Source: Sphyrna mokarran
Lineage: Eukaryota
Assembly (NCBI GenBank): GCA_024679065.1
Contig: JAGIQG010000004.1
Location: forward strand, 62,496,001 to 62,560,000
Length of the DNA: 64,000 bases
Reading direction: 5' to 3'
This document shows, in pieces, positions 6,721-60,663 of the stretch (position 1 is its first letter; each line of letters opens with the position of its first letter). The notes beneath the pieces were generated by a model. That model had not been told where the DNA came from. It was given only the letters and a program-made list of their open reading frames with translations, and did not search any database. Made by a program: the position numbers and the translations under genes.

Positions 6721-9700
6721 CGTCGGCGCCCACCCCGGGAGTCGACCACTGTATCTGGGTTAACGCATTGTTAGGGGGCCGGTGATGCAAAATATTAATA
6801 GATAGTGGTCCGTGATATCCCTCACCAACATGGCTTTTCCTTCAACCCATCATTCCATCATAGTACTGCGGGTAGAGGGAAATAGGACTACAGCTTATCA
6901 GAGCGAGGCAGTCCTACTTGAGATCGAGGACATTTTACTCCCAGTACATTCCTGGGTATGCCCGAACTAAGAGGGAACGATCTTGGGGATAGACCCCCTG
7001 GGGGGGTTAGGGGTGGTGGTGGACGCTTTTAACAAGCGCCTGCTGTGGACCGCGAGGAAGGAACACAAAAGTGGGATTCAGGGATACTGGGTCCCCAATA
7101 AAAATGTAAAGGTTCGCCTTTACCTAACGGAAGGAAACAGTGCACATGGACACGCCTCCCCCAAAAGTTCCACAACAGCCCCAACATTTTCCACCAAGTT
7201 ATGAGTGAGGCCTTCGAGGAATGCGATCTGTCCCCATATGGAAGTACCTTCCTCCAATACGTGGACGGCATCCTTATCAACTCCACCAACCTCAGGGGAC
7301 ATATAGGAGCCCTGTTCACAATCCTATGGGCCTTGCAGGTTGCGGGGTTTAAAATCAACCCAACCAAAGCACAGATTGCATAACCTGAGGTCTGGTATTT
7401 AGGGCATAAGTCAGGGAAAGAAAGCCCTCCTCTCCGATCGGAAGACCGCAGTTGTAAATATGCCCCGTCCAATCATAGTCCAAGGGGTGCGCAGAGTTAT
7501 GGGACTCTTTAACTACTGCCAGAATTTCATTGACCAATTCGCATCCCTGGCCGAATTCAGCGGCTGGTCAAAGGGGGGAAAGCCAGGAACAATCGAGTGG
7601 AGACCCGAGCAGGAGGTAGCACACACCTGTCTAAAATCAAAGTTATTAGCAGCCCCAGCCCTATGCCTACCCACGATAATTAAACCCTTCCACCTCTTTT
7701 ATGACTCAGAAGAAGGATTTTATAGCTCCGTGGTAACCCAAGAATATGGGGGCACCATGCAGCCGGTGGTACATTACTCTACTCGGCGGTCCCCGATAGC
7801 CAAGAGACTGCACAAATGTGTGGCGGCGCTAGATTGCGCCGCCTGGGCAGTCAGGGGATGCGAACCAATCACTATGTCAGGACAAATCATTCTACATATA
7901 AAACGCACTATTGTCGAGCTCCTGAATACCGACCGGCACCGGACTGTGTCGGACCCCCGGCGGGCCAATTTGGAAGCGGTTACTCCTCCCCCGGGACAGT
8001 CAGTCCAGAAAGCGTGGGATACCGGGAAAAACCCCGCAAAGGGGCTCCTATCAGCGGGAAGTCCGCACTGCTGCTGGATTAACCCAGACACTGAAACAGA
8101 GGAAGGGGTTAATGACCAACCCCTAAATAATCCAGGCATCACACTGTATGTAGACGGGTCCCGAAGATAAGGAGAGAGACAATACTGTACAAGCTGGGTA
8201 ATAGTAGATCAAGAGGGGACACGGATGGTAAAATGTATCATGAGTGGCGAAACCTCCGCCCAAGTGGCCGAACTCATAGCCCTCACAGAAGCCTTAAAGA
8301 TGGGAAGGGAAAAGCGAGCAAATGTGTATCTTGATAGCCAAATGCGTTTGGGGTGGTCCACGATTACATGATGGCCTGGAAAAGGTTTATCACCACAGGG
8401 GAGGGTCGCCTAAAGCATGAAAACATAATTCGAGATCTGGTAGCTGCAGCCAGGCTGCCTTTAGAAGCAGCCGTAATTAAGATAAAAGCCCACCAGCGGG
8501 TAAAGACAACAGAACAGAAGGGAAACCAATTAGCAGACGCTGCAGGCAAGGGTGCAGCGGGGGAAGCCCACCCGCACATAGCCGCTACCACAACAGCACC
8601 CTCTGAGGAAGTGGATATTTATAAGCTGCAGGGTAATGCAAGCCTAGATGAGGTGACACAGTGGGAACAGGCAGGGGCATCCAGGGACAAAGACTGAGTG
8701 TAGAGCAAAGGGCACCAAGTAGCTGCCCCCTCGTTTATATGCACTGACCTCCTCTGGCTCCACCACGAGCTGGACCACTTCAGCCGGGATGGGACTCTGG
8801 CCCGACTGTCAGCCGATTGATGGTGGCCAGGGATGGGAAGGGATGTAGCCGAACACTGCCAGCGCTGTATCATATGCGTCCAGCACAACCCCGGCCGATC
8901 CCTGAGAATCAAACTGGCTCACCAACCTCCACCAAAGGGACCCGGGGAAAAGCTCCAAGTCGACTTCATAGGCCCTCTGCCCACTAGCCGAGGGAAGAAA
9001 TATTGTTTAGCCTTAACTGATCAATTCACCCGCTGGGTAGAAGCATTCCCAACTGCGGATTGCGAAGCCGCCACTATAGCCTGCATTTCAGCGTACGAGA
9101 TCATCCCGAGGTGGGTAGTGCCACTACAACTGGACTCCGACCAAGGGACAAACTTCACAGGCAAGATAATGAAACAGACTTGTAAAACCCTGGGAATTCG
9201 ACAGCGATTCCATATCCTGTACCACCTTCAGAGCTTTGGGATGGTCGAGCGAATGAACCGCACACTTAAAAATGCGATCGCCGAGACAGGTCAGGGGTGG
9301 GTAGACGTCCTACCCTGTATTTTAATGCGCCTACGAGCCATCGCAGGCCGCACCATAGGACTCACACCATTTGAATTAATGACGGGGATGGCAATGAGAC
9401 TCCCAGAAAACATAGCAGGAAGAGGAGAAGAATTGGCACCCCTTCGAGATAAGTTGAGGAGATATGTTCAAGAGTTAGACCATCAACTCAGAGAGCTATA
9501 CCACGCAACCAGAGACCAACAGGCTATAAGAAACCAGGATAAGAAACATGATATCTGTCACACCACTACACTTCCCTGAGTAATGGATAACGTTTTAATC
9601 CGAATGGCTCCCGACAAACAGGGTTCTCTCTGAAATGGATAGGATGCCATGAGATTATCCTCACTAGCAACACGTGCCTGTGTCGATATCAAAGTGAAAG

Positions 9701-9740: not shown

Positions 9741-9950
9741 CGGGGGGAGGGGGAGGGGTGGTGGGAGGGTAGAGACAGGACAGACCGACTGCATGGACGA
9801 GAATAGACCGTCGACATAAATGGGCCACGTATGGACCCCTAATTAACTATCTCTATCCACACAGCGGAAATCGAATTAACCATCTTCATTTCTAGGACGG
9901 AGGGGGACGACATGTCAGCCATGGGTCTAATATATGTATATATGTATATA

Positions 9951-12900
9951 CAAAGAACAAAGAACAAAACGGCACGGGAAAGAGGCCCTTCGGCCCAACG
10001 AGCCCGCGCCGCCACCCCGATGCTCCCACTTCCACCCGCGATCCCTGTCCATGTTTATAGATATATGGATCAAAATGCAAATTTGAGACAATTTAGGGAG
10101 AATTTGTTTTGCCAATTAGCCTAAGAGCACATCTTTGGGATGTGCGATGAAACCGTAGCACCCGGAGAAAACCCACGCAAGCACGGGGAAAATGCACAAA
10201 CTCCTACAGACGCAGGCCCAAATCCATGTGTCTGCACAGCACAGCGATAGTCACTGAGCTGTCGTGTTGCCCATCAAATGGTCCAGGTCAAGGGTACACT
10301 AACGACGTGAAGCACTAGGATACTCTCGAAAAAAAATCCAAGAGCAGCCCTCTCACGACCCACCGCGTATATGCCCCTCATTAGACAACAAGGTGGACCA
10401 AAGCACCTGTAGGATAAAAACAAGTACATCAATATTATCATCTATTTACACATTTCCTAGGAACTCCCAAGGCTCATGATCCCTATTTTAAATCAGTTTT
10501 CTATACCCCTCCATTCCCATTCTGTTCATGTGCCCATCTAAGTATTTCTTGAATAACTCCAGAGTACCTGTCTCCACCACTTTACTTGGCAGCGCATTCT
10601 ATACCCATATCACCCTCTGTGTGAAAAAACTCTCTCTAGCATCCAAATTATACATTACCCCCCTCACCCTAAGCCCGTGACCCTTCGTGCTATTCGAGTC
10701 CATCCTAGGAAAAAGCTTAAGCCTGTTTACTTTATCTATACCCCTCATAATCTTGTACACCTCTATTAGATCTCCTCTAAGTCTATGTCTTAGTAAGGAA
10801 AACAGTCCCAATTTGCCTAACCTCTCCTCGTAACTCAGACCTTCCATACCAGGTAGCATCCTGGTAAACCTTCCCTGCACTCTCTCCAGAGTCTCCACAT
10901 CCTTCTGGTAGTAGGGAGACCAGAACTGGATGCAGTATAGAACATAGAACATAGAACAATACAGCACAGAACAGGCCCCTCGGCCCCCGATGTTGCGCCG
11001 ACCAAAATAAAAAGCAATGCCCCTCCTAACTAAACCATTCCCTTCTCATCCATATACTCATCAACCAACCTCTTAAACGCCACCAAACTTGGCGCATCCA
11101 CAACAGCTGCAGGCAGGGCATTCCACTCCCTAATCACTCTTTGAGTAAAGAACCTACCTCTGATATCCGTCCTATAACTCATACCCCTTAATTTAAAGTT
11201 GTGTCCCCTCGTGCTAGCTTTCTCCATCCTAGGAAAAAGGCTATCACTGTCCACCCTATCTAAACCTCTAATCATCTTATATGCTTCAATAAGATCCCCT
11301 CTTAGCCGCCTCCTTTCTAACGAAAACAACCTCAAATCCTTCAACCTCTCTTCATAGGACCTGCCCTCCATACCAGGCAACATCCTGGTAAACCTCCTCT
11401 GTACCCTCTCCAATGCCTCCACATCTTTCTTATAATGTGGCGACCAGAACTGCACACAATACTCCAAGTGCGGCCGCACTAGAGTTTTGTACAGCTGCAA
11501 CATGATGCTGCGGCTCCTAAATTCAATCCCCCTACCAATAAAAGCTAAGACTCCATATGCCTTCTTAACAACTTTATCCACTTGACTGCCTACTTTCAGG
11601 GATCTATTGACACATACACCAAGATCCTTCTGTTCCTCAACACTATTAAGAGCCCTACCATTAGCCCTATACTCTACACATTTATTGTTCCTGCCAAAGT
11701 GCATTCCAAATGTATTCCAAGTGTATTCCAAATGAGGTCTAACCAACGTTTTATACAACTGCAAAATTAAAGGCCAGCACTTGTACTCTGTACCCCTTCC
11801 TATAAAAGCTAACATACTATATGCTTTCTTCACAACCTTCTCCACATGCTCTGTCACCTTCAGAGACTTGTTCACCTGCACCCTCAGACCCCTCTGCATT
11901 TCTATACTCTTAATAGCTCTATCCTTTATCATATACTCCCCCCAAAATTCTTTCTCCCGAAATGCATCATCTCACATTTATCAGGATTGAATTCCATCTG
12001 CCATCTGTCTGCCCAAGCTACCAGCCTATCTATGTCCTGCTGCATCACCTGATAATGCTCCTCACTATCTGCAAGTCCAGCCATCTTTGTATCGTCTGCA
12101 AACTTGCTGATCACTCCCTCGTCCAATTCATTGATATATATTACAAATAGAAAGGGTCCCAGTACCGAGCTCTGCGGCACACCACTAGTGACCGACCTCC
12201 AGCTAGAGAAACACCCTTCCACTATTACTCTCTGTCTCCTATTACCAAGCCAGTTACTTATTCATCTAGCTACCTGTCTTTGTATCCCATTAGCCTTGAC
12301 CTTCTCAAATAACCTCCCATGAGGGACTTTGTCAAAGCCTTACTAAAATCCATATAGACAACATTAACGGCTTGCCCTTCGTCCACCGTTTTCGTCACCT
12401 CCTCAAAAAATCCTACCAGATTCGTAAGGCACGACCTCCCCTTAACAAATCCATGCTGCGTATCACTAATCAGATCGCAACACTCTAAGTGCCTATATAT
12501 CCTATCTCTAAGAATCCCCTCCACCAGCTACCCTACCTGTGATGTCAAACTCACTGGCCTATAATTCCCAGAGATATCCCTACTACGCTTTTTAAACAAC
12601 GGTACTACATTATCTATTCTCCAGTTCTCTCGACCTCACTTGTGTCCAAGGAAGAGACAAAGATTTGCGTCGGAGGGCCAGCAATTTCACCTCGCACCTC
12701 CCTAAGCAGCCTGCGATAAATAGCATCAAACCCCGGAGATTTATCACTTTTAATGCTCTAACACTTTCTCCCTCAGTATGGATATTTCCCTCAACTGGTC
12801 CACAGCTCCCTCAGAGACAGGAGCTGTCAACAAGTCCCTCTCCTTAGTGAATGTCGACGCAAAGTATTCATTCAGGATCTCCGCCATTCCCTCGGGCTCT

Positions 12901-13045
12901 GAGCACAGTTCCCCTCCTCTGTCCCTAAGAGGCCCGATTTTTCCTCTAACTACCCTTTTATTCCCAACATAGGGGTAAAAAGCCTTTGGATTTCCCTTAA
13001 TCCTATCCGCCAAAATCATTTCTTGCCCCCTTTTTGCCCTACTCA
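9951..13045 (-). mobile_element. CR1-B LINE, 5'-truncated, long 3'UTR, interrupted by a CR1-A copy
   Basis: RT fragments ([28 protein letters not shown]), ORF2 end near 10495, and a 3'UTR with V-SINE core and (gttcttt)n tail. Confidence 0.92.
10938..11705 (-). mobile_element. CR1-A LINE 3' fragment nested in CR1-B
   Basis: Near-identical to 22180-22945, with a (gttctat)n tail. Host sequence gcagtat|tccaaatgagg resumes after it. Confidence 0.95.
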
Positions 13046-17392: not shown

Positions 17393-20300
17393 TACAAAGA
17401 GCAAAGAAGAACAAAGAACAAAACAGCACGGGAAACAGGCCCGTTGGCCTCACGAACCCGCGCCGCCACCTCGATGCTCCCCCTTCTACCCATAATCCCT
17501 GTCTATGTTTATAGATCTATGCATTGGAACCAAATTTGCGACAATTTAGAGAGAATTTGTTCTGCCAATGAGCCTAAGAACGCATCTTTGGGATGTGGAG
17601 GAAATCGGAGTGCCCAGAGAAAACCCACGCAAGCAAACTCCCACAGACATGGGCACAAATCCATGTATCTGCACAGCACAGCGATAGTCACTGAGCTGCC
17701 GTGTTGCCCATCAAATGGTCAAGCGTACACTAACGACGTGAAGCACTAGGATATTCTTGATAAATTCAAGAGCAGCCCTCTCACAACCCATCGCGTGTAT
17801 GCCCCTTGTTAGACAACAAGGCGGACCGAAGTACCTGGAGGATAACACAAACACATCATTGGCAATTTACACAATTCTTAGGGAAATCCCAAGTCTCCTG
17901 ATCCCCATTTTAAATCAGTCTGCTATATCCCTCCATTCCCATTCTGTTCATGTGCCCATCTAAGTACCTCTTAAATAAATCCAGAGTGCCTGCCTCCACC
18001 ACTTTACTTGGCAGCACGTTCCATACCCCCACCGCCCTCTGTGTGAAAAAACTCCCTCTAGCATCCAAATTATACCTTACCCCCCTCACCCTAAGCCCGT
18101 GATACTTCTCACTATTTGAGTCCATCCTAGGAAAAAGCTGAACCCTGTACTCTACCTATACCCCTCATAATCTTGTACACCTCTATTAGATCTCCTCTGA
18201 GTCTATGTTTTCTAAGGAAAACAGCCCCAATTTGCCTAACCTCTCCCCGTAACTCAAACCTTCCATACCAGGCAGCATCCTAGTAAACTTCCTCTGCACT
18301 CTCTCCACAGTCTCCACGCCCTTCCGTTAGTAAGGCGACCAGAACGGGATGCAGTATTCCAAATGAGGTCTAACCAACGTTTTATACAACTGCAACATTA
18401 AAGGCCAGCTCTTGTACTCCATACTCCTTCCTATAAAGGTTAACATGCCATATGCTTTCTTCACAACCTTCTCCACCTTCTCTGCCACCTTCAGAGATTT
18501 GTGCGCCTGCAACCCCAGATCCCTCTGCGTTTCTATACTCTTAATATGTCTATCCTTTATCATATACCTCCCCCTTACATTCTTTCTCCTGAAATGCATC
18601 ACCTCACATTTATCAGGATTGAATTCCATCTGCCATCTATCTGCCCAAGCTACCAGCCTATCTATGTCTTGCTGTATCGCCTGACAATGCTGCTCACTAT
18701 CTGCAAGTCCAGCCATCTTTGTATCGTCTGCAAATTTGATGATCACTCCACTTACTCCCTCTTCCAAGTCATTTATATATATTACAAATAGAGGAGGTCC
18801 CAGTACCGAGCCCTGCGACACACCACTAGTGACCAACTTCCAGCTAGAAAAACACCCTTCCACTATTACTCTCTGTCTCCTATTACAAAGCCAGATACTT
18901 CTCCATCTAGCTACCTGAAATCCATTAGCCTTGACCTTTTCAACTAACCTCCCGTGAGGGACTTTGTCAAACGCCTTACTGAAATCCATATAGACGACAT
19001 CAATGGCTCGCCCTTCGTCCACCGTTTTCGTCACCTCCTCAAAAAATTCTATCAGATTTGTAAGGCACGACCTCCCCTTAACAAAGCCATGCTGTGTATC
19101 TGTAATCAGATCGCAACGTTCTTAGATCCTATACGTCCTGTCTCTAACAATCCCCTCGAACAGCTTCGCTACCACTGATGTCAAACTCACCGGCCTATAA
19201 TTACCAGGGTTATCCCTACTACCCTTTTTAAACAACGGTACAACATTAGCTATTCTCCAGTCCTCTCGACCTCACCTGTGTCCAAAGAAGAGACAAAGAT
19301 TTGCGTCAGCGAGCCAGCAATTTCACCTCGCGCCTCCCTAAGCAGCCTGGGATAAATGCCATCAGGCCCCAGAGATTTATCACTTTTAATGTTACCTAGA
19401 AGCTCTAACACTTCCTCCCTCGGTATGGATATTTCCCTCAACTGGTCTACATCTCCCTCAGTGACAGGGCCGGTCTACAAGCCCTTCTCGTTCGCAAATA
19501 CTGACGCAAAATATTCATTCAGGATCTCTCCCACTCCCTCGGGCTCTAAGCACAGTTCTCCTCCTCTGTCCCTAAGAGGTCCTATTTTTCCTCTCACCAC
19601 CCTTTTATTCCTAACATAGGAGTAAAACGCCTTTGGATTTTCCTTAATTCTATCTGCTAAAGCCATTTCATGCCCCCTTTTTGTCCACCTAACTCCCCGT
19701 TTGACCTCACTCCTACTCTCTCTATATTCCCCCAACGCTCTCTCCGTTCCCAGCGGCGTTGACTTCACATAAGCCTCTCTGTTCTTCCGAACCAAGTCCT
19801 CAATATCCCTAGTAATGCACGGCTCTCTAATCCTACCTTTGCCATCTTTCCTCTCAGCTCGCACGTATCTTTCTTGCAACATTTTCAGTATTCCCTTGTA
19901 AGAATCCCACACTCCAAGCATGGATTTACCCTCGAACAACCGTTCCCAATCAGTTTCCAAATGTTCCTGCCTAATCCGACTGTAGCTTAGCCTTCCTCCA
20001 ATTCAGCACCCTCTCCCTCTGGGAATAATATCCTTTTCCAACTGTATCCTAAAATAGGCAGAATTGTGGTCACTGTTAGCCACATGTACCCCTACTACAA
20101 CTTCAACCACCTGCCCTGGCTCATTACTCAGAACTAAATCCAATAAAGCCTCCTCTCTAGTTGGACTAGCTACATACTGCTCCAATGATCCTTCCAGTAC
20201 ACAAATTCCTCCCCGTTCGAATCTCCAGCTCTAGGTACCTTCCAATCCACCCCAGTGAGATTAAAATCTCCCAGTATAACAACTTTGTTCTTTCTGCACC

Positions 20301-20830
20301 TGTCCAAAATGTCTTTACGTATGCGTTCTTGCACTGCCCGTGGGCTGTTGAGTAGCCTATAATACACCCCTAGCATAGTTATTGCTCCCTTCCTATTCCT
20401 CAACACTACCCACAGTGACTGAAATCCTAACTCCTCTGTATTGTCTTCTGTCTGCACTGCTGTGATACTCTCTCCAACTAACAACGACATTCCCCCATCT
20501 CTTCTGGATCTTCTTCTGTCAGGCCTGAAAGATTTATACCCAGAAATATTCAGCTGCCACTGCTCGCCTTCCTTTAACCACGTCTCCGTTACTGCAAACG
20601 CATCTAAGTTCCTTGCAAACATTAAGGCCCTAAGTTCATCTGTTTTTCCTGTTATGCTCCTCGCATTGAAACAGACTCACTCCAGACGTCCAAGCACCCT
20701 CGGAACCTCCTTCTTCCTGGTGTATTTCCTCTCATCCAAGCTTACACAGTCTCCCATCTCGCTCCCTACCGAGCTATCGGTGTCATCCCCCCACCCCCAC
20801 CCTTGCCCCCTCCATATAAATTAAATAAAC
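17393..20830 (-). mobile_element. CR1-B-type LINE with near-complete degenerate ORF2, in receptor intron 5
   Basis: APE endonuclease (FNARSI, AVTETWL, LGDFN, SDHN) and RT ORFs 18327-19034 etc., plus the long 3'UTR module. Confidence 0.92.
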
Positions 20831-28365: not shown

Positions 28366-30745
28366 CTAAATTCAAGATAACAATACACATAAATTGTGAA
28401 ATTAAGCTTCTGCTCAAAAAAATGTAACTTTATCAATTATGCACAGCTACTTCACGGCAGCAAATTGATGCAATAGTCAGTATTTTCATACTGTTGCGTG
28501 GTGTTTTTCATAGAAGAAACAACAAAACAGCACGGGAAACAGGCCCTTCGGCCCAACGAGCCCGCATCACCACCCCGATGTTCCCACCTCTACCCGCGAT
28601 CCCTGTCCATGCTTATAGATCTATGGATTAAAAACCAACTTTGAGACAATTTAGGGAGAATTTGTTTTGACAATTAGCCTAAGAACACATCTTTGGAATG
28701 TTGGAGGAAACCGGAGCACCCGGAGAAAACCCACGCAAGCACGGGAGAATGCGCAAACTCCCGCAGATACAGGCCCAAATCCATGTATCTGCACAGCACA
28801 GCGATAGTCACTGAGCTGTCGTGTTGCCCATCAAATGGTCCAGGTCAAGCGTACACTAACGTCGTGAAGCACTAGGATACTCTTGAAAAAAAAATCCAAG
28901 AGCAACCCTCTCATGACCCATCGCGTGTATGCCCCTCGTTAGACGACAAGGTAGACCAAAGCACTGCAGGATAAAAACAAGTCCATCAATATCATCATCT
29001 ATTTACACTTCCCAGGAACTCCCAAGGCTCATGATCCCTATTTTAAATCAGTTTTATATACCCTTCATTCCCATTCCTTTCACGTTCCCATCTAAGTATC
29101 CCTTAAATAATTCCAAAGTGTCTGCTTCCACCATCTTACTTGGCAGCGCATTCCACACCCCCACCACCCTCTATGTGAGAAAACTCCCTCTAGCATCGAA
29201 ATTATACCTTACCAACCTCACCCTAAGCCCGTGACCTCTCGTGCTATTCGAGCCCACCCTAGGAAAAAGCTTAACCCTGTTTACTTTATCTATACCCCTC
29301 ATAATCTTGTACACCTCTACTAGATCTCCTCTAAGTCTACGTCTTTCTATGGAAAAGAGTCCCAATTTGCCTAACCTCTCTTCGTAACTCAGACCTTCCA
29401 TACCAGGCAGCATCCTAGTAAACCTCCTCTGCACTCTCTCCAGAGTCTCCATGTCCTTCCGGTAGTAGGGCGACCAAACTGGACGCAGTATTCCAAATGA
29501 GGTCAAACCAACGTTTTATACAACTGCAACATTAAAGGCCAGCTTTTGTACTCTATTCCCCTTCTTATAAAGGCTAGCGTACTCTATGCTTTCTTCACAA
29601 CCTTCTCCACTTGCTCTGCCACCTTCAGAGACTTGTTCACCTGCACCACGAGGTCCCTCTGCGTTTCTATACTCTTAAAGGGTTTACCCTTTATCATATA
29701 CTTCCCCGGACATTGTTTCTCCCGAAATGCATCACCTCACATTTATCAGGATTGAATTCCATCTGCCATCTACCTGCCCAAGCTACCAGCCTATCTATGT
29801 CCTGCTGCATCACCTTACAATGCTCCTCACTATCCGCAAGTCCAGCCATCTTTGTATTGTCTGCAAACTTGCTGATCACTCCGCTTACTCCCTCTTCCAA
29901 GTCATTTATATGTATTACAAGTAGAAGAGGTCCCAGTACCGAGCCCTGCAGCACACCACTAGTGACCAACCTCCAGCTAGAAAAACACCCTTCCACTATT
30001 ACTCTCTGTCTCCTATTACCAAGCCAGTTACTTATTCATCTAGCTACCTGTCCTTGTACCCCATTAGCCTTGATCTTTTCAACTACACTCCCATGACGGA
30101 ATTTGGCAAACGCCTTACTAAAATCGACATAGACGACATCAACGGCTCACCCTTCGTCCACCGTTTTCGTCACTTACTCAAAAAATTCTACCAGATTCGT
30201 AAGGCATGACCTCCACTTAACAAATCCATGCTGTGTATACCTAATCAGATTGCAACGCTGTAAGTGCATATACATCCTATCTCTAAGAATCCCCTCCAAA
30301 AACTTCCTTACCACTGACGTCAAACTCACTGGCCTATAATTCCCAGGGTTATCCCTATTACCCTTTTTAAACAACAGTACAACATTAGTTATTCTCCAAT
30401 CCTCTGGGACCTCACCTGTGTCCAAGGAAGAGACAAAGATTTGCGTCAGAGAGCCAGCAATTTCACCTCGCGCCTTCCTAAGCAACCTGGGATAAATGCC
30501 ACCAGGCCCCGGAGATTTATCACTTTTAATGCTACCCAGAAGCTCTAACACTTCCTCCCTCGGTATGGATATTTACCTCAACTGTTCCACAGCTCCCTCA
30601 GAGACAGAAGCTGTCAACAAGCCCCTCTCCTTCGTGAATACCGACGCAAAGTATTCCTTCAGGATCTCCACCATTCCCTCGGGCTCTAAGCACAGATTCC
30701 CTCCTCTGTCCCTAAGAGGTCCGATTATTCCTCTAACCACCTTTT

Positions 30746-41707: not shown

Positions 41708-43185
41708 TGGAGGTTGGTCACTAGTGGTGTGCCGCAGGGCTCGGTACTGGGACTTCTTCTATTTGTAATATATATAAATGACTTGGAAGAGGGAGTACGT
41801 GGAGTGATCAGCAAATTTGCAGATGATACAAAGATGGCTGGATTTGCGGATAGTGAGGAGCATTGTCACTATCTGGTGACGCAGCAGGACACAGATAGGC
41901 TGATAGCTTGGGCAGACAGGTGGCAGATAGAATTCAATCCTGAAAAACGTGAGGTGATGCATTTCGGGAGAAACAATGTACGGGGGAGGTATATGATAAA
42001 GGGTAGACCTATTAAGAGTATAGAAACGCAGAGGGGCCTGGGAGTGCAGGCGAACAAGTCTCTGAAGGTGGCAGAGCAAGTGGAGAAAGTCGTGAAGAAA
42101 GCATATAGTATGTCAGCCTTTATAGGAAGGGGAATAGAATGACCTTTAATGTTGCATTTGTAGAAAACGTTGGTTAGACCTCATTTGGAATACTGCGTCC
42201 AGTTCTGGTTGCCTTACTACCGGAAGGGCGTGGAGACTCTGGAGAGAGTGCAAAGGAGGTTTACCAGGATGCTGCCTGGTATGGAAGGTCTGAGTTACGA
42301 AGACAGGTTAGGCAAATTGGGACTGTTTTCCTTAGAAAGACGTAGACTTAGGGGATATCTAATAGAGGTGTACAAGATTATGAGGGGTATAGACAGAGTA
42401 AACAGGGTTAAGCTCTTTCCTAGGATGGACTCGAATAGCATGAGAGGTCACGGGCTTACGGTGAGGGTGGTAAGGTATAATTTGGATGCTAGAGGGAGTT
42501 TTTTCACGCAGAGGGTGGTAGGGGTATGGCATGATCTGCCAAGTAAAGTGGTGGATGCAGGTACTCTGGAGTTGTTTAGGAAATACTTAGATGGGCACAT
42601 GGACAGAATGGGAATGGAGGGGTATATAAAACTGATTTAAAATAGGGATCATGAGCCTTGGGAGTTCCTGGGAAGTTTCTAAATAGATGATGATATTGAT
42701 GTACTTGTTTTTATCCTACAGGTGCTTTGGTCCACCTTGTTGTCTAACGAGGGGCATATACGTGATAGGTCGTGAGAAGGCTGCTCTTGGATTTTTTTTT
42801 CGAGAATATCCTAGTGCTTCACGTCATTAGTGTACGTTTGACCTGGACTATTTGATGGGCAATACTACAGCTCAATGATTATAGCTGTGCTGTGCAGATA
42901 CATGGATTTGGGCCTGTGTCTGTGGGAGTTTGCACATTCTCCCCATGCTTGCGTGGGTTTTCTCCGGGTGCTCCGGTTCCCTCCCATATCCCAAAGATGT
43001 GCTCTTAGGCTAACTGGCAAAACAAATTCTCCCTAAATTGCCTCAAATTTGTTTTTTAATCCATAGATGTATAAACATACACAGGGATCGCGGGTAGAGG
43101 TGGGAACATCAGGGTGGTGGCGCGGGCTCGTTGGGCCGAAGGGCCTGTTTCCCGTGCTGTTTTGTTCTTTGTTCTTTGTTCTTTA
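41708..43185 (+). mobile_element. CR1-B 3' part with complete long 3'UTR
   Basis: ORFs 41714-42142 and 42170-42640. 3'UTR 42641-43185 has an acceptor, hairpins, V-SINE and (gttcttt)n tail. Confidence 0.95.
42857..43185 (+). mobile_element. V-SINE-derived segment embedded as the terminal part of the CR1-B 3'UTR
   Basis: Decayed tRNA head (family consensus gggcaacacgacagctcagtgactatcgctg), V core tgtctgtgggagtttgcacattctcccc..gcgtgggttttctccgggtgctccggtt..ctccca..tcccaaagatgtgc..taggctaa, and tail stem-loop tgggccgaagggcctg. Confidence 0.85.
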
Positions 43186-44594
43186 TGCACATTACCTGAT
43201 GAAAATCCTGGAAGTTCCTCCTTTACTGCATTGTGGGTCAAACCACATCACATGGAATGCAGCGATCCAAGAAGGCAGCGAACCGCAATCTTTTCAAGAG
43301 CAATTAGGTACGGTCAATTAATACTAGCCAGTCAGCGACGCCCATGTCCCACGAATAAATAAAAATAAGCGACTGCATTAATGAATTGAGTCATATTTGG
43401 TGCTACGCAGGCCAGTCCGGCTAACCAATTACGCGCCGTACATTCATGTCGTTACGGAATGCATTGGAGTATTGTGAAGAATAAAAATAGTGATCCATTC
43501 AGCTGGACTGTACTTCTTGTGGAACATAAAATACTAATGAAGTACTAATGAGGTACTAATGAAGTCTTTAATTTTTTAAAACTTCTTTGCTAATGACATT
43601 AAGTAAGAGGGTCTTTCATTTTATACGTTGGAGAAAGGTTTTGTAATTGTCATTAAAAGAACACGGATACCGAATTCGGACAGTGTTTTAAGGCCTATTC
43701 GTATCATCAGTCTAATATGTTAAGGAAAGCGATTAATAATTTGAGACGACTAGTAAAATGGAGACACCTGTGCGGAAATAGATGTTTTGAAAATAAAAGA
43801 TTCGCAATTGATAAATCAGAAACTTAATTTGAATTAATCCTCAGGGTGCACACGAGCGTGGTGACGAAAGATCCTTTGTGCTGAACTGAGCACACTATCT
43901 AAATATGGGCATTATAAGTGTCGAGTTTTAAAGCAGATGGCCCAAGTTTTATCAGTGTTAAAATTCTTTGTTGCCTCCTGTGTGTTTTTCGTTAGTTAAT
44001 ATCTCATTTATGCAGTCGAACTGCGTGAATATTGACATCTACCACGCAGAGTCACCACTATGGGCAGACATCCATCTGTTATCATTTCCAGATGAACGCT
44101 GTTGCCAACTGTTAAACCTTGTCATTTACACTCAACTTTGCAGAATACGTTGATAAAGGTACTTCTTCTTCACTCTGTTAGTTGTGTAATCGTCCTCAAC
44201 AAAGCAGGACAGAGAAAGAATGACAGTTGCAGCGTGCAGTATGCAGTTGCATAATGTAAAATACACCGCCAAAACGTTTGTATTGTGGTGGTAATTCTCA
44301 GATATGCAAAGAAAGCTCTATAATCTATGCACCTCATGCAGATATTATGGTTCAGATTAGAAACTCTGAACGTGTTTTGTGAGGCTCTCCTGAGTCTTGT
44401 TTTGCATCTTTAACATACAGGGATTATCACGAGATGTTTCATTCTGGGTATTATGCAAGTGAGGCACGAGAGAGCTCTTATCAAACAAAATACGTTTAAT
44501 AATTTAATCAAAATGTGCAGCAAGAAAATTATCAAGAACATCTATCAATTACAAATAAGAGCAAAACAGCCAGTATTTAATCATCGTGCTTATA

Positions 44595-46118
44595 AGAACA
44601 GAGAAGAACAAAACAGCACGGGAAACAGGCCCTTGGTCCCAACAAGCCCGCGCCGCCACCCCGATGTTCCTATCTCTACCCGTGATCCCTGTCTATGTTT
44701 ATAGATCTATGGATTAAAAACCAAATTTGAGACAATTTAGGGAGAATTTGTTTTGCCAATTAGCCTAAGAGCACATCTTTGGGATGTGAGAGGAAACCGG
44801 AGCACCCGGAGAAAACCCACGCAAGCACGGGGAGAATGTGCAAACTCCCACAGACACAGGCCCAAATCCATGTATCTGCACAGCACAGCGATAGTCACTG
44901 AGCTGTCGTATTGACCATCAAGTGGTCCAGGTCAAGCATACACTAACGACAAAGCACTAGGATACTCTAGAAAAAAAATCCAAGAGCAGCCCTTTCACGA
45001 CCCATCGCGTGTATGCCCCTTGTTAGACAACAAGGTGGACCAAAGCACCTGTAGGATAAAAACAAATACATCAATATTATCATCTATTTACACACTTCCC
45101 AGGGACTCCCAAGGCTCATGATCCCCATTTTAAATCAGTTTTATATACCCCTCCATTCCCATTCTGTTCATGTGCCCATCTAAGTAATTCTTGAGTAACT
45201 CTAGAGTGCCTGCCTCCACCACTTTACTTGGCAGCGCATTCCATTCCCCCTCCACCCTCTGCGTGAAAAAAACTCCCTCTAGCATCCAAATTACACCTCA
45301 CTCCCCTCACTCTGAGCCCGTGACCCCTCGTGTTATTCGAGTCCATCCTGGGAAAAAGCTTAACTCTGTTTACTCTATGTATACCCCTCATAATCTTGTA
45401 CTCCTCTATTAGATCTCCTCTAAGTCTACGTCTTTCTAAGGAAAACAGTCCCAATTTGCCTAACGTCTCCTCGTAACTCAAACCTTCCATACCAGGACAG
45501 CATCCTGGTAAACATCCTCTGCACTCTCTCCAGAGTCTCCACGTCCTTCCGGTAGTAAGGCGACCAGAACTGGATGCAGTATTCCAAATGAGGTCTAACC
45601 AACGTTTTATACAACTGCAACATTAAAGACTAGCTCTTCTACTCTATACCCCTTCCTATAAAGGCTAGCATACGATATGTTTTCTTCACAATCTTCTGCC
45701 ACCTTCAAAGACTTGTGCACCTGCAGCTCCAGCTCCCTCTGCGTTTCTATACTCTTAATAGGTCTATATTTATCATATACTACCCCTCTTCATTCTTTCT
45801 CCCAAAATGCATCACCTCACATTTATCAGCATTGAATTCCATCTGCCATCTATCTGCCCAAGCTATCAGCCTATCTGTGTCCTGCTGCATCGTCTGACAA
45901 TGCTCCTCACGATCTGCAAGTCCAGCCACCTTTGTATCATCTGCAAACTTGCTGATCACTCCACTTGCTCCCTCTTCCAAGTCATTTATATATATTATAA
46001 ATAGAAGAGGTCCCAGTATCGAGCCCTGAAGCACACCACTAGTGACCGACCTCCAGCTAGAGAAACACCCTCCCACTATTACTCTCTGTTTCCTATTACC
46101 AAGCCAGTTTCTTATCAT
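44595..46118 (-). mobile_element. CR1-B 3' part
   Basis: RT C-terminal ORFs 45224-46118 and the same 3'UTR module; cttata on both flanks. Confidence 0.94.
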
Positions 46119-53164: not shown

Positions 53165-53885
53165 AAACAAAGAGAAAAGAACAATACAGCACAGGAAACA
53201 GGCCCTTCGGCTCAAGGATCCCGCGCCGCCATTTTAACATTATGAGTGCCCTCCTCTACTTATGAACTTTGTCTATACTGTTAGGGAAGAGTGAGGGAAG
53301 ACTACTTTAGGGACAATTTGTTACATCAATCAGCTTAAGAGCATCTTTTTGGGATGTGGAAAGAAACCGCGTCACCCGGAGAAAACCCATGTAATCATGG
53401 AAAGAATACACAAACTCCCGCAGACACCGGCCCAAATCCATTTATCTGCACAGCAAACAGTGATAGTCACTGAGCTGTCGTGTTGCCCGTCAGCTGTGGT
53501 CCAGTTTAAGCACACACTAACAATGTGAAGCACCAGGCATATCTCGAAGCAACATTCAAGAGCAGCCCTCGCACGACCCACCGCGTGTGTCCCTTGTTGG
53601 TCAACAAGGCGAACCGAATCAACTGTGAAGTGAAAGAAAAGACATCAGTAAACATGCTACCTGACACCCCCTCCTCCCTCCCACAGAGAACTATCTGGCC
53701 TCCCTCACACAAGAGAATGATCAGCCATCGCCATCACCACAGAATGTTTGTGCCTCCCCCCACCAGATGATTTGGCTTCCCCACATCAAAACATTCTGAT
53801 GTGGATATATGCCCCTTTCTTCCATCATTTTACGTAAGATTCTTGGAAAACACTGTCATCAAGTGTTTCAGATGCTATATGCAGC
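53165..53885 (-). mobile_element. Diverged CR1 (CR1-C) 3' end carrying the same acceptor/hairpin/V-SINE module
   Basis: 53330-53645 aligns with the CR1-B module. ~53800-53880 resembles an ORF2 end (..MMEEKG). Sequence on both sides of the module differs from CR1-B. Confidence 0.75.
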
Positions 53886-54765: not shown

Positions 54766-56790
54766 AATGGACAGGCAGTCAGTACAGGACAATGTGCGCA
54801 TGACCAGCCCACCCAATTTAATGAGGACGACTTGAGGAGATTTTTTGGTGCTGCTAAATTGAGGTGCATCACCGTCTTACTCCCAGGAGGATATAGACCC
54901 GCGGCGAGGGTGGGGGGGGGGGGGGGGGGGGCGATGGTGGTGGGTGCAGTGGGGCTGCTGATGGCCATGCGCCTTAGGAGGCAGTTACCGCCCGGTCGGT
55001 GCAGGGCACTGGCCCCTGGAACCGCAAGGCTGTGTTGGAAAAAAAAAAATCAGTGACCTCATTCACATGCTCCCTCATATCCCCCCAGATCCTTCTGTTC
55101 TCAGCACCCTGTATGCTTCTGAGCTCCAAGCGCCTCCTTCCATTCTCCCCAATAAGCCCCACTGTATTTGCTCTCTGAGGGTCACCATCTCATTCTCTGC
55201 CACTATTTGTTTCATCGTTCCTTCTGTCTCCACAGAAGAAGATTGAACACAACACCCATGAGAGGGTGAAGACAGGGCATGGTGAGTAAGAGTCCAGGTC
55301 CTCATCCGGTCTGAGTAGCGGGCGCTGGAGCTCACAGGAAAAAGGGAGACAAGGGCTGTCAAGGTCGTTCTGCTGTCCACTTGTTGGCACGTGTCATTCC
55401 TACACTCTGAGGCAATTTTTTAGAGGGACGAGTTTCGGGTGCAAAGGGCAATGTGTAAAGGCGACGTATGGGGCATTTTATTTGCGTTCAGAGGATAGTG
55501 GTTGCCTGGAACTCACTGTCCTAGGAGTCGTGAAAGCAGAAACTATAGGGACAGTTAAAGGACATCTCTGCAGCTACCTGAATGGGATGGGAACAGAGGC
55601 AGATGGGAACAAACAAATCAGATGGGGAGCCTACTCACTACAGGGTTGGAGGGCTATAGGCCTTTTCCTGTGATGTAATTGTCTGGTTTCAGTGTTCAAT
55701 GTTCAAAGGGGCCATGTGATACACGTATTTGGCATCCCAGATTACTCTCCTTGCACATAACATTATGTCCTCTGTTTCAGTGACACATCCTGATACTCCA
55801 GAGCCTTCGGGACCACAGGACCTGGTTCCAGGTCTCATCCATCCTAGGAACAATGGCGGGGCTGTGTTCTCAGAGGATATGGGTAAGGTGACTGCTGAGA
55901 ATGGCACCGTTTATCCGTCAGATTCTACCACATGGCGTCTGCAATGGACAGCAGAACGACCTTGACAGCCCTTGTCTCCCTTTTTCCTGTGAGCTCCAGC
56001 GCCGCTACTCAGACCGGATGAGGACCTGGACTCTTACTCACCATGCCCTGTCTTCACCCTCTCATGGGTGTTGTGTTCAATCTTCTTCTGTGGAGACAGA
56101 AGGAACGATGAAACAAATAGTGGCAGAGAATGAGATGGTGACCCTCAGAGAGCAAATACAGTGGGGCTTATTGGGGAGAAAGGGAAGGAGGCGCTTGGAG
56201 CTCAGAAGCATACAGGGTGCTGAGAACAGAAGGATCTGGGGGGATATGAGGGAGCATGTGAATGAGGTCACTGATTTTTTTTTGGGGCAGGGTATCCACA
56301 CCATGGATGACAGGCTCCAAGAAATGGCCAAGTCTCAGCAGGTCACAGCAGAGAGATTGAGCAGGTTTCCTGAGAGTCTGCGGCCTATGGCTGAGAGTCT
56401 TGACACCTTGCAGCAGACCCAGAGGGACAGCGGTGAGACATAGCAGGCAATGTCAGCAACCCTTGAGAAGATGACCCAGTCTCAGAGTGCCACCGCTGAG
56501 GGCTTGCAAAGCATGGCCTAGTTTCAGAGGGTTATGGCAGAGGGCTTGCAGAACATGGCCCAGTCTCAAAGGGCACTTGTTGCAGCCATTGAGAAATGCC
56601 CCAAGACTCCACTGGCCACTGCAGAGGAGTCGACCACCATAAGTAGGACACAAGTGGTCCTACAGAATTGCCAGTCCCTGGCGCTCACTGCAAAAGCACC
56701 AATGTCCCACGGAATGACCCAGGGGCCAAAAGGGACCCCCAACGGAGGAAGAAAGGCGCAAGGCCATGCTGGGGCCTTCCAGCCTTGAGA
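54766..56790 (+). pseudogene. Harbinger Myb/SANT-like protein, disrupted
   Basis: PTQFNEDDLRRFFGAAKLR...RP at 54800-54960 and a coiled-coil C-terminus at 55900-56790. Confidence 0.65.
55039..56283. repeat. ~340-bp near-perfect inverted repeat (55039-55379 / 55945-56283)
   Basis: Direct reverse-complement match with only a few differences; the same peptide appears in ORFs 55075-55380(-) and 55901-56443(+). Confidence 0.95.
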
Positions 56791-60525: not shown

Positions 60526-60663
60526 ACAGCGATAGTCACTGAGCTGTCGTGTTGCCCATCAAATGGTCCAGGTCAAGCGTACACTAACGACGTAAAGCAC
60601 TAGGATACTCTCGAAAAATCCAAGAGCAGCCCTCTCACGACCCATCGCGTGTCGACAACAAGG
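60526..60663 (-). repeat. Solo internal fragment of the CR1-B 3'UTR module
   Basis: Near-identical to 10241-10393 but lacks the V core, tail and ORF2. Confidence 0.9.

What the first reader, a model, noticed from the sequence alone, without database searches (positions are those of the whole stretch)
42695..42725. Invariant 3' splice acceptor downstream of ORF2 in all module-bearing CR1s
Seen (element sense): attgatgtacttgtttttatcctacag|g (AG 42720-21; similar at 10408-07 and 45050-49), gtgtttgtgttatcctccag|g (17836-35), acttgtttttatcctgcag|t (28965-64) and actgatgtcttttctttcacttcacag|t (53624-23). Neighbouring bases vary (ctacag/ctccag/ctgcag/tcacag), but a TGAT branch-like motif, a pyrimidine-rich tract and CAG persist. 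Similarity between CR1-B and the diverged 53-kb element begins at about this point. Inference: master elements were selected to keep an acceptor. It could produce a spliced sub-genomic non-coding RNA (5'UTR joined to the module, a self-made SINE-like RNA) or trap host transcripts.
Basis: partly seen in the sequence, partly recalled or inferred. Interest (0 to 1): 0.75.

Follow-up and report, generated by a model that had tools for sequence, protein, structure and literature searches.

The report
Conserved splice acceptor in CR1 tail
A family of CR1 jumping genes in this fish-like genome keeps a strong splice-acceptor signal just after its last gene, ahead of a folded RNA domain and a captured SINE, but whether the cell really splices there is untested.

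Summary
The motif is real at all six cited places. The window's B copies descend from closely related masters. The 53-kb element is a 5'-truncated copy of a sister subfamily.

The genome gives better evidence. Six subfamily lineages keep pyrimidine tract + YAG|G, although the gap to the ORF2 stop ranges from 20 to 169 nt and the tract is only 50-62% identical between lineages. It is the best acceptor among 503 sense-strand AGs of the element. None of 54 short-tailed CR1 ends has one. Neutral retention of a strong site is unlikely (P 0.0005-0.03); retention of the AG alone is not (P about 0.24).

Downstream lie a conserved 120-nt RNA fold and a captured tRNA-derived SINE without its B box.

No spliced retrocopy family was found against 14,879 intact copies: one ambiguous junction, none from the 5'UTR or ORF1. 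A self-made SINE is therefore not supported. Best reading: a constrained 3' splice site, probably used to splice ORF2 out. No RNA evidence was obtained.

The parts
41708..42640 (+). 3' part of ORF2 of a 5'-truncated CR1-B copy; stop TAA at 42638-42640
   Evidence: ORF 42164-42640; 85-90% identity to other B copies; full-length relatives carry esterase ORF1 and APE/RT ORF2
42641..42694 (+). Variable spacer. ORF2 stop to AG is 81 nt in B, about 160-169 in C/C2, 20-21 in D/E
   Evidence: lengths from a common ORF2 anchor, minus 13 nt to the stop
42695..42722 (+). Acceptor-type motif: branch-like TTGAT (A at -23), pyrimidine tract, CAG|G with AG at 42720-21
42729..42849 (+). Conserved non-coding RNA fold: closing stem, short hairpin, long interrupted stem; no Rfam match; no shared reading frame
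   Evidence: z -2.1 to -6.0 for subfamily majorities; 95% of cells paired, 4 of 37 pairs with changes on both sides; this decayed copy alone z -1.5; Rfam
42857..43184 (+). Captured tRNA-derived SINE (V-SINE/HE1-like by recall): degenerate A box, B box lost, central domain kept; ends in the CR1 terminal motif and (TTCTTTG)n
   Evidence: alignment to the majority of 49 free SINE copies begins at the SINE 5' end
9950..13045 (-). CR1-B copy, AG 10408-07, interrupted by a CR1-A insertion at 10937-11705
17407..20760 (-). CR1-B/B2 copy reaching the endonuclease start, AG 17836-35
28509..30745 (-). CR1-B copy, AG 28965-64, one G lost at the junction
44594..46116 (-). CR1-B copy, AG 45050-49
53165..53657 (-). 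5'-truncated copy of sister subfamily C, AG 53624-23
60526..60652 (-). Internal fragment of the module without the acceptor

Best explanation
The motif is a U2-type 3' splice site that the master elements of one CR1 lineage have kept directly after the ORF2 stop. Shown: its sequence, strength, persistence through spacer and tract turnover, and restriction to module-bearing families. Inferred: a fraction of full-length transcripts is spliced from a donor in the element to this AG, removing ORF2. The best candidate donor is AGR|GTAAG, 59 nt after the ORF1 stop in B and also present in C. The product would be 5'UTR + ORF1 + folded domain + SINE-derived tail. It would act as an ORF1-only or attenuating RNA, not as a mobile element, because it has left no family of copies. 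Unspliced RNA is the transposition template, so genomic copies keep the site.
For: Strong site (10.4-15.4 bits) in 6 of 6 lineages; rank 1 of 503 sense AGs. Tract 75-94% pyrimidine although only 50-62% identical between B, C, D and E, with spacer 20-169 nt. Position -3 toggles C/T while AG|G is fixed. 0 of 54 short-tailed CR1 ends reach 8 bits. Neutral simulation: P(all four lineages at 12 bits or more) = 0.0005-0.03. GT at the candidate donor in 8 of 8 aligned sequences (GTAAG in 7) despite flanking codon changes. Precedent for a spliced structural-protein RNA in Ty1/Copia (PMC5580714, abstract).
Against: No RNA evidence. No retrocopy with a junction from the candidate donor or from the strongest donors, against 14,879 intact copies. 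The only precise GT-AG join (L173) has 6 nt of microhomology. AG retention alone has P about 0.24. The simulation has no slippage and a post-hoc threshold. The antisense strand also has a 13.9-bit AG. The donor is seen in only two lineages about 80% alike and lies in coding sequence. At 59 nt after the stop the product may be an NMD target (rule recalled), which fits attenuation better than ORF1 supply.
Confidence: 0.38

Rival explanations
1. The tract is constrained but not for productive splicing. It binds U2AF/PTB-type or element proteins and aids 3'-end definition, stability, export or folding of the adjacent domain. CAG|G simply rides along.
For: Constraint is shown for pyrimidine content, not for AG. 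Module-less CR1-A ends also have a U-rich run before the terminal motif, without AG. The -4 A, which splicing does not require, is also invariant. Junction retrocopies are absent.
Against: U-rich CR1-A ends never score as strong acceptors (max 7.3 bits in 20), whereas all six module lineages do. A C/T toggle at -3 is what an acceptor allows.
Confidence: 0.3
2. Neutral relic. An ancestral acceptor-like sequence came in with the module; T runs persist by slippage and the AG survived by chance.
For: Only 8 of 16 four-fold sites changed across B/C/D/E, so a dinucleotide survives with P about 0.24. T/C run slippage is visible in D (71 of 82 matches are tract variants).
Against: Whole-site strength kept in four lineages has P 0.03 or less. 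Large spacer indels all fall upstream of the tract, never between tract and AG.
Confidence: 0.2
3. One reading: splicing makes a 5'UTR+module SINE-like RNA that retroposes, or the site was selected to trap host transcripts.
For: The downstream exon is non-coding, folded and ends in the tail that CR1 RT should recognise. One precise GT-AG join exists (L173).
Against: 0 of 110 distinct loci with altered upstream sequence join 5'UTR or ORF1 precisely to the AG, and no host exon recurs. All 4 module copies in 200 kb of unselected DNA were ordinary CR1 ends. A trapped RNA loses the acceptor, so it cannot select for it.
Confidence: 0.08

Closest known systems
CR1-clade LINEs with esterase ORF1 (PMC13343379, passages); HER1 LINE of sharks and rays (PMC3747384, table passage)
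   Same: 5'UTR, esterase ORF1, APE-RT ORF2, terminal motif and microsatellite end, heavy 5' truncation
   Different: About 540-nt composite 3'UTR instead of about 60-100 nt; that survey has 0 hits for 'splic'
V-SINE HE1 (PMC4824008 and PMC3747384, passages); MER6 carrying a headless V-SINE (PMC6887750, abstract and passages)
   Same: tRNA-derived SINE with central domain carried as a passenger in another element after losing its promoter
   Different: Carrier is an autonomous LINE, and the SINE-derived end now serves as its tail; identity with HE1 is recalled, not tested against a reference
L1 SpIREs (PMC5860796, abstract)
   Same: Splice signals inside a LINE RNA
   Different: SpIRE sites lie in the 5'UTR/ORF1 and leave retrocopy families; this site lies after ORF2 and no family was found
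Ty1/Copia spliced subgenomic GAG RNA (PMC5580714, abstract)
   Same: Works-like model: splicing yields an RNA for the structural protein only
   Different: LTR element, splicing coupled to premature termination and shown experimentally; here a LINE, only inferred
Bipartite non-autonomous LINEs, 5'+3' ends (PMC5786205, passages)
   Different: Not found here

Membership tests
CR1-clade LINE | ORF2 with APE endonuclease and RT | tested here: met
   APE Pfam hit for the 17-20 kb copy; RT motifs in the L136 translation; the RT Pfam hit itself was on CR1-A, about 67% alike in DNA
CR1-clade LINE | Esterase ORF1 | tested here: met
   GDSL/OSK hits in L136
CR1-clade LINE | 3' terminal motif with microsatellite end | tested here: met
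CR1-clade LINE | RT phylogeny inside CR1 | not tested
   no reference sequences held
U2-type 3' splice site | YAG|G and pyrimidine tract | tested here: met
U2-type 3' splice site | Branch point 20-40 nt upstream | tested here: inconclusive
   yTnAy-like at -23 (B, C) and -21 (D), poor in E; motif is common
U2-type 3' splice site | Used by the spliceosome (junction reads) | not tested
   no RNA was laid on the element
V-SINE (HE1-like) | tRNA head with A and B boxes | tested here: not met
   present in free copies (box motifs recalled); B box lost in the embedded copy
V-SINE (HE1-like) | V-domain homology to reference V-SINEs | not testable with these tools
   label recalled; no reference sequence obtained
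V-SINE (HE1-like) | Homology to the genome's free SINE from its 5' end to its CR1-type tail | tested here: met
SpIRE / bipartite non-autonomous LINE | Recurrent retrocopies with a precise donor-acceptor join | tested here: not met
   1 ambiguous case in 110 distinct loci

The most novel reading that the evidence does not exclude
A vertebrate LINE with a programmed intron spanning ORF2: donor just after the ORF1 stop, acceptor just after the ORF2 stop. It would give a subgenomic ORF1 or attenuator RNA whose last exon is a dedicated 120-nt RNA fold plus a domesticated SINE, a Copia/retrovirus-like expression strategy in a non-LTR element.
Probability: 0.25. Interest if true: 0.78.

Novelty: new variant of a known kind. 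Interest (0 to 1): 0.5.

Why it matters
LINEs are thought to depend on unspliced RNA, and L1 splicing is described as inhibitory. A lineage that keeps a strong acceptor right after ORF2 through repeated spacer turnover would point to regulated splicing in a LINE. With at least 14,879 exact copies it would also be a large source of cryptic acceptors in host introns. Independent of splicing, the composite tail is solid: a LINE that adopted its own SINE as 3' end and conserves an unknown RNA fold. I did not find it described in the searches. Repbase and Dfam entries and the original HE1/V-SINE papers could not be seen.

Tried and rejected
1. Self-made SINE. Pattern 1 gave 77 matches, 74 inspected: 66 scored as foreign upstream sequence, 6 local indels, 2 with ORF2 upstream. 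Pattern 2 gave 101 matches (100 listed), 46 inspected, 10 of them duplicates; of the other 36, 24 were scored foreign (3 are intact C-type acceptors), 10 local, 2 with ORF2 upstream. Of the four ORF2 joins: L197 is an insertion into another copy, L229 keeps the acceptor-side CAG, L177 has no GT, and L173 is precise but has microhomology. The two patterns cover 209 of 279 GT positions. The single hit for one uncovered ORF1 donor was an ordinary truncation. The D pattern (82 matches) and C pattern (131 matches, 100 listed) showed no recurring foreign sequence; these were judged on the matched letters only.

2. 'The domain is a decayed older CR1 tail': 223-471 of 500 shuffles scored as well; rejected.

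3. A coding exon, or a 13-codon antisense frame ending at the site, seen in B and C: D carries a 2-nt deletion there; rejected.

4. Known RNA family: none at gathering score, two chance matches; no tRNA gene.

5. RNA runs: 20 listed, best share 0.27; none was laid, so they are no evidence.

6. Earlier findings: none.

7. One search was mis-specified and is not used.

Full report
Setting. The window lies in a 2.77-Gb genome dense in CR1 LINEs. A cartilaginous fish is my inference from recalled resemblance of its SINE and CR1 ends; it was not tested. Full-length copies of the family at 42.7 kb (B) are about 4.7 kb long, with a 5'UTR, esterase ORF1, APE-RT ORF2 and a 3'UTR of about 540 nt. An exact 34-mer across the acceptor occurs 14,879 times.

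Observation. All six AG positions are as stated. The window alone does not show selection. Its B copies come from closely related masters, and inserted copies lose the AG at the same rate as neighbouring bases (2 of 60 letters against 3.4%). The 53-kb element is a copy of sister subfamily C truncated about 34 nt before the exon. In 22 of 30 C loci, homology to B continues upstream into ORF2. So 'similarity begins here' is an effect of truncation plus a C-specific spacer.

Cross-subfamily evidence. I recovered six lineages: B, B2 (3 copies), C (30), C2 (1 locus plus pattern rows), D (4 full, 6 short) and E (7 short, 1 full). All end the spacer in pyrimidine tract + YAG|G and score 10.4-15.4 bits on an approximate matrix with recalled frequencies. 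The B site ranks first among 503 sense AGs; 56 of 26,546 background AGs reach 12 bits; one antisense AG of the element scores 13.9. The distance from the ORF2 stop is 20-21 nt in D/E, 81 in B and about 160-169 in C/C2. The tract is 50-62% identical between B, C, D and E, against 74-91% for the downstream domain, yet stays 75-94% pyrimidine. None of 54 short-tailed CR1 ends in the held loci reaches 8 bits, although CR1-A has a U-rich run there. A neutral simulation on a tree from 52 ORF2 third positions gave P = 0.0005-0.03 for all four lineages keeping 12 bits, but about 0.24 for keeping the AG. It ignores slippage and its threshold was chosen afterwards. Constraint on the tract is therefore supported; constraint on the AG itself is not shown.

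What follows the AG. Positions 42729-42849 fold alike in all lineages: closing stem, short hairpin, long interrupted stem (z -2.1 to -6.0 for majorities; -5.6 for single D and E copies but only -1.5 and -1.8 for two decayed window copies). On 10 real copies 95% of cells pair and 4 of 37 pairs change on both sides. The shuffle control is mixed (0/500 for cells, 81/500 for pairs), and the structure was derived from the same alignment. Rfam has no match and no reading frame is shared. From 42857 the sequence aligns to the majority of 49 free tRNA-type SINE copies, starting at the SINE's 5' end, with the B box lost. The V-SINE/HE1 label is recalled. The idea that the fold is a decayed older CR1 tail failed its test.

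Is the site spliced? No RNA was examined, so this stays open. The genomic proxy was negative. Two patterns for copies with altered sequence before the AG gave 77 and 101 matches; 74 and 46 were inspected, 110 distinct. None joined 5'UTR or ORF1 precisely to the AG, and no foreign exon recurred beyond pairs with near-identical flanks. Four had ORF2 upstream; only L173 is a precise GT-AG join, and it has 6 nt of microhomology. The patterns cover 209 of 279 GT positions, including the strongest donors. Searches in D, in C and for one uncovered donor were also negative. This argues against a self-made SINE. It does not exclude a spliced mRNA, because LINE proteins favour their own RNA (recalled for L1).

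Mechanism. The acceptor sits just after the ORF2 stop. A donor-like AGR|GTAAG lies 59 nt after the ORF1 stop in B, and its GT is kept in all 8 aligned B- and C-type sequences. Splicing between them would excise ORF2, as the Copia subgenomic GAG RNA separates structural from catalytic products (PMC5580714, abstract). The donor evidence is thin: two lineages, coding sequence, no D/E 5' halves. The product may be an NMD target (rule recalled), which would make it an attenuator, in line with splicing inhibiting L1 (PMC5860796, abstract).

Literature. What I saw: PMC4824008, PMC3747384, PMC2734521, PMC13343379 and PMC5786205 as passages; PMC6887750 as abstract and passages; PMC5860796 and PMC5580714 as abstracts. 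Searches showed no description of this composite CR1 tail or of its acceptor. The original V-SINE paper was not held. Repbase, Dfam and supplements were not seen, so the family may already be catalogued.

Verdict. The feature is real and better supported than the window suggests, inside a known kind of element with an unusual composite tail. Function as a splice site is plausible and cheap to test, but unproven. Interest 0.5.

Noticed in passing
window 7403-9579 (+): LTR-retrotransposon remnant with RNase H-like and integrase domains
   Followed up: no
window 55041-55379 and 55945-56283: 340-bp inverted duplication, 99% identical
   Followed up: no
L136 about 640-705; L254 5' part: The 5'UTR of full-length B and C also holds a long pyrimidine tract ending in TAG (7.6 bits in B), upstream of a TATA-like motif
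   Followed up: partly
L254, just before ORF1: One C copy shows a donor, a pyrimidine tract and AAG|G about 66 nt apart before the ORF1 start, like a short 5'UTR intron; single copy
   Followed up: no
D copies L143, L238, L245, L249: Subfamily D appears to end in an oligo(A) run instead of a microsatellite; D and E top hits are 96-98% alike, so these look young
   Followed up: no
L021, short-tailed CR1 end: A module-less CR1 end has TTTCACAG|G shortly before its terminal motif, without a full pyrimidine tract; may hint at the origin of the CAG
   Followed up: partly
L197; window 10937-11705: CR1 copies inserted inside other CR1 copies; L197 sits at a short microhomology and mimics a spliced element until the downstream flank is read
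   Followed up: yes
window 60526-60652 (-): Isolated internal fragment of the module lacking both acceptor and tail
   Followed up: no
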